A stretch of DNA of 64,000 nt from Escherichia coli (GTDB lineage: Bacteria; Pseudomonadota; Gammaproteobacteria; Enterobacterales; Enterobacteriaceae), in the NCBI RefSeq assembly GCF_048403405.1, contig NZ_CP183129.1; one strand, 5' to 3'. This document shows positions 1 to 3,000 of the stretch, one piece after another (positions within the stretch are counted from its first letter, which is position 1; each line of letters begins with the position of its first letter). The position numbers are program-made.

Positions 1-3000
1 GCAAAGGGTGCCAGGCACGGCTGCACATTAATGCCGACGGAACGCAGGCGACATTTATTGATGATGCTGGGGAGCAAAAATGGGCGGTGGATTCCATTGC
101 CGACTGCGCGCGTCGTTTTATGGCGCATCCTCAGGTGAAAGGACGTCGGGTATATGGACAGGTTGGGTTCAACTTTGCGGCGCATGCGCGGGGGATTGCC
201 TTTAACGCCGGGGAGTGGCCGCTGCTGACGTTAACCGTTCCCCGTGAAGAACTTATTTTTGAAAAGGGAAATGTCACCGTTTATGCGGACTCCGCCGACG
301 GGTGCCGACGTTTGTGCGAGTGGGTAAAAGAGGCCGGTACAACGACGCAGAACGCACCACTGGCGGTGGATACCGCCCTCAATGGTGAGGCATATAAACA
401 ACAGGTTGCGCGCGCCGTTGCGGAGATCCGCCGTGGCGAGTATGTCAAAGTGATTGTCTCGCGCGCCATTCCCCTGCCATCGCGGATTGATATGCCCGCC
501 ACGCTGTTATACGGGCGGCAGGCAAACACGCCTGTGCGCTCGTTTATGTTCCGTCAGGAAGGACGCGAAGCGCTGGGCTTTAGCCCGGAACTGGTGATGT
601 CAGTGACGGGCAATAAAGTGGTCACTGAACCGCTTGCGGGCACCCGAGATCGCATGGGAAACCCGGAGCATAATAAGGCGAAAGAGGCAGAACTGCTGCA
701 CGACAGTAAAGAGGTGCTTGAGCATATCCTTTCTGTCAAAGAAGCTATTGCTGAACTGGAGGCTGTTTGCCAGCCGGGCAGCGTGGTGGTTGAAGATTTA
801 ATGTCGGTTCGCCAGCGCGGCAGCGTTCAGCATCTGGGGTCTGGCGTGAGCGGTCAGCTTGCGGAAAACAAGGATGCCTGGGATGCGTTTACCGTGCTGT
901 TTCCGTCGATTACCGCCTCAGGTATCCCTAAAAATGCTGCTCTGAACGCGATTATGCAAATTGAGAAGACGCCGCGAGAGCTTTATTCCGGCGCAATCCT
1001 GCTGCTGGACGATACGCGCTTTGATGCGGCGCTAGTTCTGCGTTCCGTATTTCAGGATAGCCAGCGCTGCTGGATACAGGCGGGGGCGGGAATCATCGCG
1101 CAATCTACGCCGGAACGCGAACTGACAGAAACCCGGGAGAAATTAGCGAGCATTGCGCCCTATTTAATGGTGTAGGAGTAACTGTTTTCTAACCTCACAA
1201 CCAGACTGTCCAAAGACAATTGAGTCGCTCTTTGATTCCTCTGTGACTCTATTGTCTTCTTTTGGGATAAAATAGGTGTTTTTCGTCATGAAGTTGATAA
1301 AAGTCTATATAGAACCACCTCCTGTGGAGGTGGTGGTAATTTGCCAGAGTGTGGGATTCGTTAGTATACTATGGGATAAACTTATTTTTACCAATTGTAT
1401 AAGGCGGTGCATAAGATTCTCGGCATGCTTCCAGATAATCCGACCACCACTGCATCATCGCTTTGCGGGCTTCCAGGTGCTCTGCCTTATGAATATAAGC
1501 CATGCGCACGGTATTGCGCTCCTGATGACTCATCTGGCGTTCTACTGCGTCCTTTGCCCATAAACCCGATTCCATCAGCGCACTGCATGCCATTGCCCGG
1601 AAGCCGTGACCGCAGATATCCTTTTTCGTGTCGTAACCCATCACCCGCAGTGCCTTATTGACCGTGTTTTCACACATTGGCTTATACGGGTTATGGTCGC
1701 CGGGGAAGATCAGTTCATTATTACCGGTGATATCCTTAATCTGTTTCAGAATGGCGATGGACTGTTCTGAGAGGGGGACGATATGCGGCATTCGCATTTT
1801 TGCCCCGCGGCCGGAATAATGCACGCCAATAATGGGTTCTCGCGTCGCGGGTATCGTCCAGACTCGGTTTGTGAAATCAATCTCTGACCAGCGGGCGAAA
1901 CGCAGTTCACTGGAGCGAATGAACACATGCAGCATCAGCAGAACGGCATGCCGGGTCAGTTCACGGCCCTGATGATATGCCCCAATACGTTCAAGCAGTT
2001 CAGGCAGCCGCTCCAGCGGCAGGGCAGGATAGTGCCGTCTGACAGGAGGTGTGGTCACGCCGCCAAGGTTTGCTGCAGGGTTCGTATCGATTAACTCCTG
2101 ATGGACCGCATGGCGTATTATGTTACTCAGGTGCTGCCGTGTGCGGGACGCAACCTCCAGCAGACCTTTTTCCTCGATCCCTTTCTGCAGGTCAATGAAA
2201 TGACGGGGTTTAAGTTCTGATACAGGTAGGTTCCCGATGACCGGAAAGATGTGATTGTTCAGGCTGGCAAGCAGACGGTCGGCGGTGTTCTGCGACCATT
2301 TCCTGTTACTTTTATGCCACGCCAGCGCCACGTTTTTAAAAACTTTCTCCGGTGTTCGTGAGCCACGTACAGCAGCCCGCTGCTGTACCGGGTTGATATT
2401 CAGCGCCAGCATTTTACGGATACCTTCACGTTGCTGTCGCGCATCAGACAGGGAGATGGCTGGATAGGCACCCAGCGCAATGCGGGATTCTTTACCGCTA
2501 ATACGGTATTTGAGATACCAGTGGCGGGAGCCACCCGGCTTGACCCGCAGATACAGACCGTGAGAATCGGAGACTTTAAAGGGTTTATCAGAAGGCTTGA
2601 GGGTGCGGATTTTTGCGTCGGTAAGGGATATATGGGGGTCACTCCATTATCGAACTAACCTGACCCCAGATTTGACCACCAATTTTTCCCGATGCGTAGG
2701 GTAAAATCAAAATGCACCGAGAAGAGTTTTCACACTAACCTGTTGAATCAACATCAGATAAAGATTCGCAAGGATGCAAGAAAACAGAAAATTGGCTCCT
2801 CTGACTGGACTCGAACCAGTGACATACGGATTAACAGTCCGCCGTTCTACCGACTGAACTACAGAGGAATCGTGAGAACGGGGCGCATATTACTTAGCGG
2901 TACCTTGTCTGTCAACACTAAATTTCATAAGCCATTTCAATTGGTTAATTAATCTGCAAAGTTGTTAATTAATGAACATTCGTCGCCGAAAACGAGTCTG

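What the first reader, a model, noticed from the sequence alone, without database searches (positions are those of the whole stretch)
2413..2649. HPI integrase reading frame is intact but the position of its start codon reads ATA
The P4-type integrase frame is open for about 420 codons and encodes the conserved N-terminus (SLTDAKIRTLKPSDKPF...) with an SD (GGAG, 2645..2642) in front, yet the codon where the initiator Met is expected is ATA (2631..2629) and no ATG, GTG or TTG lies in frame between the upstream stop (2649..2647) and Met-75 (2412). A single C-to-T change at forward position 2629 would explain this. If real, full-length integrase cannot be made efficiently, which would immobilise the island at asnT.
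Basis: partly seen in the sequence, partly recalled or inferred. Interest (0 to 1): 0.45.

Follow-up and report, generated by a model that had tools for sequence, protein, structure and literature searches.

The report
Start-codon loss in a decaying island integrase
The integrase gene of the E. coli yersiniabactin island really does begin with ATA instead of ATG, but this is a common inherited variant of a gene that was already redundant because the island had lost its other recombination site, so it is ordinary gene decay.

Summary
On the minus strand there is a TAA stop (2649..2647), GGAG (2645..2642), ATA (2631..2629), then SLTDAKIRTLKPSDKPF. The frame is open for 420 codons. The first in-frame ATG/GTG/TTG is at 2412 (Met-74, not Met-75).

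It is not a sequencing error. The same 61-mer with ATA occurs in 842 of 5,426 complete E. coli genomes and is the commonest haplotype of this site. The other E. coli haplotypes sampled, and seven other species, carry ATG, so ATA is a derived E. coli allele. RefSeq annotates ATA itself as the start. Another public gene-call set records only the 347-aa Met-74 ORF.

AUA should cut translation to roughly 0.02-3% of AUG. But it does not explain the island's immobility. A genome that matches the window at essentially 100% over 25 kb lacks the right-hand 17-bp att repeat, and an ATG genome has the same junction.

In the fixed islands int changes fit neutral evolution (22 nonsynonymous : 5 synonymous). 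In ICE-type islands the ratio is 14:31. The window allele also carries L29R, E88V, L149Q, M172I and R271H.

Verdict: ordinary decay of a stranded integrase gene. Low interest.

The parts
2629..2631 (-). ATA at the position of the integrase initiator codon (ATG in all other haplotypes and species examined). The forward base at 2629 is T, against C elsewhere.
1369..2631 (-). HPI integrase (int/intB) reading frame of 420 codons plus stop, uninterrupted. RefSeq annotates exactly this span as WP_024165620.1 in identical genomes.
2642..2645 (-). GGAG Shine-Dalgarno-like motif, 10 nt upstream of the ATA. It is conserved in ATG alleles.
2647..2649 (-). In-frame TAA that closes the frame upstream, so no earlier start is possible.
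2410..2412 (-). First canonical in-frame start (Met-74). A product starting here (347 aa) would lack almost all of the Arm-DNA-bind_3 domain (residues 3-87). This is the ORF recorded in the public gene-call set searched.
2793..2868 (-). asnT tRNA-Asn (GTT), the integration site. Its 3' end carries the 17-bp att core CCAGTCAGAGGAGCCAA (2792..2808), which is the left repeat (attL core).
2887..2915 (-). Promoter-like site (TTGACA-17-TAATAT) upstream of asnT. No terminator-like site was found between asnT and int. This is consistent with published int transcription from the asn tRNA promoter.
   Evidence: PMC13023037; PMC8209727
1..1175 (+). 3' part of ybtS (yersiniabactin salicylate synthase), converging on int. 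It marks the interior of the island, and the rest of the HPI lies outside the window.

Best explanation
The ATA is a real, inherited point mutation (ATG to ATA) in the initiator codon of the HPI integrase gene. It arose within E. coli and is now the commonest allele of this site in the species.

It sits in a gene that had already become useless. The E. coli asnT island lost its right-hand att repeat in a deletion that ATG and ATA islands share, and the islands examined have no annotated excisionase-type (AlpA/Hef-like) gene. The integrase therefore has no attR to recombine with.

Freed from purifying selection, int accumulates neutral damage. This includes start-codon loss (this allele), many amino-acid replacements, the known ~350-bp internal deletion, and nonsense mutations.

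Expected mechanistic effect, inferred and not measured here: translation of full-length Int falls to a few per cent or less of the ATG level. A Met-74 product, if made at all, would lack the arm-binding domain.

The ATA is therefore a symptom of the island's domestication, not its cause.
For: 1. Real and inherited.
- The exact 61-mer with ATA is present in 842 complete E. coli genomes.
- Only 56 genomes match the window's 25-kb flank at >=99%, so the allele sits on many chromosomal backgrounds.
- The exact 347-aa downstream product is listed in 21,665 blocks of the public assembly collection, and the four loci read from it carry ATA.

2. Derived.
- ATG is found in Phytobacter, K. pneumoniae, K. 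spallanzanii, Pantoea, Affinibrenneria, Raoultella and Izhakiella.
- ATG is also found in the four other E. coli haplotypes, with exact counts of 76, 404, 537 and 127.

3. The island was already fixed.
- FDAARGOS_497 matches the window at essentially 100% over 25 kb. It has no 17-bp repeat after fyuA at up to 3 mismatches, and the only other copies are the other asn tRNA genes.
- G749 (ATG) has the same junction over 700 bp and no repeat.
- No AlpA/Xis-type gene is annotated in either island, whereas an ICE-type E. coli HPI (PCP06238) has an AlpA-family gene and a VirB type IV secretion system.
- Published work says the same: PMC2606025 and PMC8209727.

4. Relaxed selection.
- Changes were polarised against a Raoultella-like ancestor. 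Fixed E. coli int alleles show 22 nonsynonymous : 5 synonymous changes (dN/dS about 1.4), not different from neutral (p = 0.65).
- The ATA subset shows 15:3 and the ATG subset 9:4.
- ICE/Klebsiella-type alleles show 14:31 (dN/dS about 0.14; p = 2e-10 against neutral).
- Fisher's exact test between fixed and ICE-type gives p = 7e-5.

5. Other damage.
- The window allele itself carries M1I, L29R, E88V, L149Q, M172I and R271H against one synonymous change.
- MS7163 (ATA) has Q394* and is flagged as a pseudogene.
- AVS0225 (ATA) has also lost Met-74 (M74I).
- Roughly 370 genomes carry the internal deletion (rows H22-H25; PMC2801613).

6. Strength of AUA as a start.
- About 1-2% of AUG on a strong reporter, and 0.02-3% on low-copy constructs (bioRxiv 10.1101/063800).
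Against: - The ORF is still open over 420 codons in four of the five ATA sequences sampled, and the catalytic-domain profile still matches. The protein is not visibly destroyed.
- AUA is a permitted table-11 start, and RefSeq treats the gene as intact.
- In vitro, with an optimised initiation region, an AUA mRNA was as active as AUG (PMC5499595 abstract). The size of the drop in this native context is therefore unknown.
- The substitution counts rest on 12 fixed-type and 3 ICE-type sequences, picked by identity rank rather than at random.
- Recombination inside int (four-gamete violations at sites 3/86/263) blurs the order of events.
- The right border was examined in a genome that matches the window, not in the window itself, which ends inside ybtS.
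Confidence: 0.8

Rival explanations
1. One reading: loss of the ATG is what prevents integrase production, and this in turn fixes the island at asnT.
For: The start codon is indeed ATA, and there is no canonical alternative before Met-74. AUA initiates poorly in vivo.
Against: The right-hand att repeat is absent in a genome that matches the window at essentially 100% over 25 kb. It is equally absent, with the same junction, in an ATG genome. The literature assigns immobility to this deletion in all asnT-type E. coli HPIs. More than 1,100 E. coli genomes with ATG haplotypes carry the island at the same site.
Confidence: 0.04
2. ATA is a functional weak start kept by selection. It would hold Int at a very low level, for example to avoid harmful recombination among the four asn tRNA genes, or to act in trans on other asn-tRNA islands such as pks or incoming ICEs.
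For: It is the commonest haplotype (842 genomes). The frame is open in most carriers. AUA does initiate at a low level, and can do so efficiently in a good context in vitro. The literature stresses that HPI/ICEKp1 int expression is normally kept minimal.
Against: ATA-lineage substitutions are 15 nonsynonymous: 3 synonymous and include radical changes (L204P, L121R, L149Q, L61Q) and a nonsense mutation. No other species or haplotype uses ATA. Frequency is explained as easily by hitch-hiking with the selected yersiniabactin genes and by recombinational spread of the island (PMC2606025).
Confidence: 0.08
3. A sequencing or assembly error at position 2629.
For: None beyond the prior that single-base errors occur.
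Against: The identical base is present in 842 independent complete genomes and in all four further assemblies read. It is also linked to other lineage-specific substitutions.
Confidence: 0.005
4. An N-terminally truncated integrase starting at Met-74 (347 aa) is the real product and retains core recombinase activity.
For: It is the first canonical start. The gene calls on record in the public collection record it. The central and catalytic domains (residues 98-384) would be retained.
Against: Only a weak GAAGG lies upstream, with an 11-nt spacer. The product would lack the arm-binding domain (3-87), which from general knowledge P4/lambda-type integrases need for attL x attR and attP x attB synapsis. 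One ATA allele has also lost this Met (M74I). There is still no attR.
Confidence: 0.04

Closest known systems
Truncated, fixed E. coli form of the Yersinia high-pathogenicity island (HPI) at asnT (Schubert et al. 2009, PMC2606025; Auvray et al. 2021, PMC8209727)
   Same: The layout is the same: asnT, then int, then convergent ybtS. In a genome that matches the window, the ybt/irp/fyuA genes follow and the right border lacks the 17-bp repeat.
   Different: Nothing structural. The ATA start of int is not mentioned in the papers found. It is an allele within this known island type.
Known decay of HPI intB: the ~350-bp internal deletion (bp 124-470; Paauw et al. 2010, PMC2801613). From my own recollection, not checked here: premature stops in int in some Yersinia and E. 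coli lineages.
   Same: It is the same gene and the same process, inactivation of a no-longer-needed integrase. About 370 complete E. coli genomes show the deletion class, and some ATG-TTC genomes are annotated as frameshifted.
   Different: Here the lesion is a single-base loss of the initiator codon, which leaves the frame intact and so escapes pseudogene flags.
Mobile ICE-type HPIs (ICEEc1 of ECOR31, ICEKp1 of K. pneumoniae)
   Same: The int is homologous (about 96.5% nucleotide identity over the int-asnT segment), sits at the same att site, and is transcribed from the asn tRNA promoter.
   Different: These carry ATG, an AlpA-type factor and a type IV secretion system. The published ICE-type islands keep both flanking repeats. 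Their int is under purifying selection, 14 nonsynonymous: 31 synonymous.
Genes that genuinely use rare near-cognate starts for regulation (e.g. infC AUU; my own knowledge)
   Same: A near-cognate initiator follows a Shine-Dalgarno motif, and RefSeq annotates it as the start.
   Different: In those genes the rare start is conserved across species and tied to a regulatory loop. Here ATA is confined to one E. coli allele and is accompanied by neutral-looking protein changes.

Membership tests
P4-type tyrosine integrase | Three-domain architecture: N-terminal arm DNA-binding domain, central (SAM-like) domain and C-terminal tyrosine-recombinase catalytic domain. | tested here: met
   Pfam finds Arm-DNA-bind_3 at 3-87 (5.8e-24), Phage_int_M at 98-191 (1.3e-22) and Phage_integrase at 224-384 (1.6e-19). 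NCBIfam NF007246, an integrase domain model, scores 230 bits, below its 434-bit whole-protein cutoff.
P4-type tyrosine integrase | A functional initiator codon that gives the full-length protein. | tested here: not met
   The codon is ATA, and no ATG/GTG/TTG occurs before Met-74. Whether AUA supports useful initiation here cannot be tested in silico.
P4-type tyrosine integrase | Catalytic activity (integration and excision). | not testable with these tools
   By eye the motifs RSSE, HGFR and AYIH are present in the translation. No residue-level check against a characterised integrase was made. The allele carries five extra replacements.
E. coli truncated (fixed) HPI | Inserted at asnT, with int next to the tRNA and the ybt genes following. 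| tested here: met
   tRNA-Asn at 2793..2868, int at 1369..2631 and ybtS at 1..1175. mtfA lies on the chromosomal side.
E. coli truncated (fixed) HPI | Right-border deletion that removes the 17-bp direct repeat downstream of fyuA. | tested here: met
   This was tested in FDAARGOS_497, which matches the window at essentially 100% over 25 kb, not in the window itself. There is no repeat at up to 3 mismatches between fyuA and the next asn tRNA gene. G749 has the same junction.
Mobile ICE-type HPI (ICEEc1/ICEKp) | Recombination directionality factor and conjugation (type IV secretion) module distal to fyuA, with both att repeats present. | tested here: not met
   In the genome that matches the window, fyuA is followed directly by chromosomal genes (inverse autotransporter, shiA, amn). 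PCP06238 shows what the ICE type looks like.
Regulatory non-canonical start codon (infC-like) | The rare start codon is conserved among orthologues. | tested here: not met
   Seven other species and four other E. coli haplotypes carry ATG.
Unitary pseudogene / decaying gene | Substitution pattern indistinguishable from neutral, plus independent disabling lesions in relatives. | tested here: met
   The ratio is 22 nonsynonymous: 5 synonymous against a neutral expectation of 3.2:1 (p = 0.65), compared with 14:31 in mobile relatives. Relatives carry Q394*, the internal deletion and frameshift flags. The sample is small.

The most novel reading that the evidence does not exclude
The ATA start is not mere decay but a selected attenuator. 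A trickle of full-length Int from an AUA start, driven by the strong asn-tRNA promoter, would be kept because it acts in trans. It might capture or stabilise other asn-tRNA islands (pks, incoming ICEs), or avoid toxic recombination among the four asn tRNA genes. That could explain why this became the commonest HPI int allele in E. coli while the frame stays open.
Probability: 0.06. Interest if true: 0.55.

Novelty: already known. Interest (0 to 1): 0.12.

Why it matters
The finding matters little for biology. The E. coli HPI is already understood to be fixed at asnT and to spread by homologous recombination.

Three practical points follow.

- RefSeq presents this gene as an intact 420-aa integrase by accepting ATA as a start, while another public gene-call set records a 347-aa ORF. 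Presence/absence or "intact integrase" calls used to infer island mobility will therefore differ between pipelines, and both may overstate function.
- The ATG/ATA site and the linked replacements are convenient markers for tracing recombinational spread of the HPI among E. coli lineages.
- The contrast in substitution pattern (22:5 against 14:31) is a clean small example of an integrase losing selective constraint once its partner att site is gone.

Tried and rejected
- **Sequencing error.** Rejected on 842 identical complete genomes.
- **Upstream or alternative canonical start.** Rejected. An in-frame TAA lies 15 nt upstream, and the upstream frame holds a further stop.
- **The out-of-frame GTG ORF at 2400..2642 (80 aa)** overlaps the start region, but its GTG overlaps the last base of the GGAG, so there is no spacer. 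I did not pursue it.
- **Yersinia int DNA.** The Yersinia state (ATG) therefore rests on my recollection only. A look-up of the ancestral-type protein returned ten further loci, all ATG, but without organism names.
- **Literature.** Searches for any mention of an ATA or non-canonical start of the HPI integrase found nothing.
- **ATA versus ATG decay.** I considered whether the ATA lineage decays faster than ATG lineages. The counts are 15:3 against 9:4, which is not significant (p = 0.41), so no claim is made.
- **Reference strains.** I did not determine which named reference strains (CFT073, 536, NU14, Nissle) carry which allele.

Full report
**1. Checking the observation**

All coordinates here are on the minus strand.

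- The window reads ...CGA TAA TGG AGT GAC CCC CAT ATA TCC CTT ACC GAC GCA AAA....
- The TAA stop lies at 2649..2647, GGAG at 2645..2642 and ATA at 2631..2629. Then comes SLTDAKIRTLKPSDKPF.
- The frame is open for 420 codons, to the stop at 1371..1369.
- The mechanical ORF list begins this frame at ATG 2412 (347 aa). A codon-by-codon walk finds only near-cognates (ATA, ATC, CTG, ATT) before it.
- That Met is residue 74, not 75.
- The forward base at 2629 is T.
- tRNA-Asn (GTT) lies at 2793..2868 on the same strand, and ybtS converges from the left.

The description is accurate. The locus is the asnT end of the yersiniabactin high-pathogenicity island (HPI). Only about 2.8 kb of the island is in the window. 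The rest of the window is chromosome (mtfA, serU, zinT ... the fli genes).

**2. Is the base real, and how common is it?**

A 1,432-nt query covering int and asnT matches 2,763 of 5,426 complete E. coli genomes. Of these, 2,058 match at >=99%. I then counted exact 61-mers centred on the codon:

| Haplotype | Genomes |
|---|---|
| ATA (window type) | 842 |
| ATG in the window background | 76 |
| ATG-TTC (S2F) | 404 |
| ATG...ACC-AGC (D5S) | 537 |
| Diverged Klebsiella-like ATG | 127 |

- About 2,160 genomes have the region, so ATA is the commonest single haplotype (about 39%).
- Only 56 genomes match the window's first 25 kb at >=99%. The allele is therefore not confined to the window's clone.
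- In a much larger public assembly collection, the exact 347-aa product downstream of Met-74 is indexed in 21,665 blocks. The four loci I read from it all show ATA at the expected place.

A sequencing error is excluded.

**3. Polarity of the change**

- One scan of species-representative genomes with a degenerate 26-mer found the site in Phytobacter massiliensis, Klebsiella pneumoniae, K. spallanzanii, Pantoea, Affinibrenneria, Raoultella planticola and Izhakiella. All seven carry ATG.
- Ten further public loci encoding the ancestral-type protein are also ATG.
- ATA is therefore a derived allele, seen only in E. coli among the genomes examined.
- Yersinia was not recovered by the pattern. Its ATG is from my memory only.

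**4. How annotators treat it**

- In genomes identical to the window, RefSeq places the CDS at exactly 1369..2631. It accepts ATA as the initiator (protein WP_024165620.1) and does not flag a pseudogene.
- The gene calls in the other public collection record only the 347-aa ORF from Met-74.
- Pfam places the arm DNA-binding domain at residues 3-87, the central domain at 98-191 and the catalytic domain at 224-384. A Met-74 product would lack the arm domain.

**5. Does the ATA immobilise the island?**

- The window ends inside ybtS, so I examined FDAARGOS_497, which matches window 1..25000 at essentially 100%.
- Its island runs asnT-int-ybtSXQP-ybtA-irp2-irp1-ybtUTE-fyuA. It is followed directly by chromosomal genes.
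- The 17-bp att core CCAGTCAGAGGAGCCAA occurs only at asnT and in the three other asn tRNA genes. No copy follows fyuA, even with 3 mismatches.
- G749 carries ATG. It has the same gene order, no repeat, and a 700-bp fyuA-distal junction that differs from FDAARGOS_497 at two positions.
- Neither island has an annotated AlpA/Xis-type gene. By contrast, E. coli PCP06238 carries the diverged ATG int and has an ICE-type island, with an AlpA-family gene and a VirB type IV secretion system beyond fyuA.
- This agrees with Schubert et al. 2009. [quoted passage not shown] Auvray et al. 2021 say the same (PMC8209727).

The island was therefore immobile for site-specific excision whatever the state of int. 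ATG and ATA islands share the same deleted junction, so the deletion is older than, or independent of, the ATA.

**6. Is int still under selection?**

I aligned 16 full-length int sequences without gaps: 5 ATA, 7 ATG of the fixed type, Raoultella, K. pneumoniae and 2 ICE-type E. coli. Changes were polarised against the Raoultella-like sequence. The further outgroups agree with it at all but one site.

| Group | Nonsynonymous : synonymous | dN/dS | Test against neutral (3.2:1) |
|---|---|---|---|
| Fixed E. coli, all | 22 : 5 | about 1.4 | p = 0.65 |
| Fixed E. coli, ATA subset | 15 : 3 | about 1.6 | p = 0.59 |
| Fixed E. coli, ATG subset | 9 : 4 | about 0.7 | p = 0.53 |
| ICE/Klebsiella type | 14 : 31 | about 0.14 | p = 2e-10 |

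- The fixed and ICE-type groups differ with Fisher p = 7e-5.
- The ATA and ATG subsets do not differ significantly (p = 0.41).
- The window allele itself differs from the ancestor by M1I, L29R, E88V, L149Q, M172I and R271H, plus one synonymous change.
- Other ATA alleles carry L61Q, L121R, L204P, G156D, A391T and M74I. MS7163 carries Q394* and is flagged "internal stop".
- Roughly 370 genomes show the known ~350-bp internal deletion (rows H22-H25; PMC2801613).
- Sites 3, 86 and 263 show all four gametic combinations. This points to recombination within int, in line with recombinational spread of the HPI.
- Caveats: the sample is small and was picked by identity rank, and the counts use parsimony.

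**7. Likely mechanism**

- Shown: the initiator is ATA, the SD and leader are unchanged, and a promoter-like site precedes asnT with no terminator-like site before int. The literature reports transcription of HPI/ICEKp1 int from the asn tRNA promoter.
- From published measurements: AUA initiates at about 1-2% of AUG on a strong reporter, and at 0.02-3% on low-copy constructs in E. coli (bioRxiv 10.1101/063800). In an optimised in-vitro system, however, AUA mRNA matched AUG (PMC5499595).
- Inferred: full-length Int is made at a small fraction of the ancestral level, and the protein is further altered by five replacements. With no attR and no directionality factor, this has no consequence for island mobility.

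**8. Comparison with what is known, and novelty**

- This is the known truncated E. coli HPI with a known-to-decay integrase.
- The specific ATA allele is present in hundreds of RefSeq records, but I found no paper that mentions it.
- It does not meet the criterion for a regulatory rare start, which is conservation across orthologues.
- I class it as already known in kind. It has a minor annotation lesson and minor use as a lineage marker.
- The reading that ATA is a selected attenuator allowing trans-acting trickle expression is not excluded, but it is disfavoured by the substitution pattern (about 6%).

**9. Verdict**

This is ordinary decay of a stranded integrase gene. Interest 0.12.

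Noticed in passing
window 1369..2631 (-): Annotation pipelines disagree on this gene. RefSeq/PGAP calls a 420-aa protein that starts at ATA (WP_024165620.1). The gene calls on record in the other public collection give only the 347-aa ORF from Met-74, which is indexed in 21,665 blocks. Integrase-intactness surveys will differ by pipeline.
   Followed up: partly
L002 (E. coli AVS0225), int codon 74: This ATA allele has also lost the downstream Met-74 (M74I, ATG to ATA at nt 222). 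It therefore has no canonical in-frame start for even longer, yet RefSeq still annotates it as intact (WP_024175719.1).
   Followed up: partly
int sites 3, 86 and 263 across L001-L027: All four allele combinations occur between the start-codon site and the L29R and E88V sites. This points to recombination (or recurrent mutation) inside a 260-bp stretch of int among E. coli lineages.
   Followed up: partly
L030 (E. coli PCP06238, NZ_CM129870.1 2030000-2076600): This is an E. coli genome with an ICE-type HPI at the same asn tRNA next to mtfA. It has a Klebsiella-like int (ATG, WP_002911601.1). Beyond fyuA it has an AlpA-family gene, TraR/DksA and a VirB type IV secretion system. About 127-142 complete E. 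coli genomes share its int haplotype.
   Followed up: partly
window 33893..34033 (-) and 34217..35331 (+): In a genome identical to the window, RefSeq annotates a 141-bp integrase fragment next to fliE, followed by a frameshifted DUF5503 pseudogene. This looks like the scar of another, older mobile element.
   Followed up: no
window 2400..2642 (-): An 80-aa out-of-frame ORF starts at a GTG that overlaps the last base of the GGAG. It overlaps the 5' end of int. It is probably a chance ORF.
   Followed up: no
window 2969..3805 (-): The longest mtfA ORF starts at GTG 3805 (278 aa), but RefSeq starts mtfA at 3766 (265 aa).
   Followed up: no
L008 (E. coli JCC-EE 7): This ATA allele has an extra 1-nt deletion in the C-run between the SD and the start (CCCCC to CCCC). 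Its int is annotated as partial, missing the C-terminus. It is a further decay variant.
   Followed up: no
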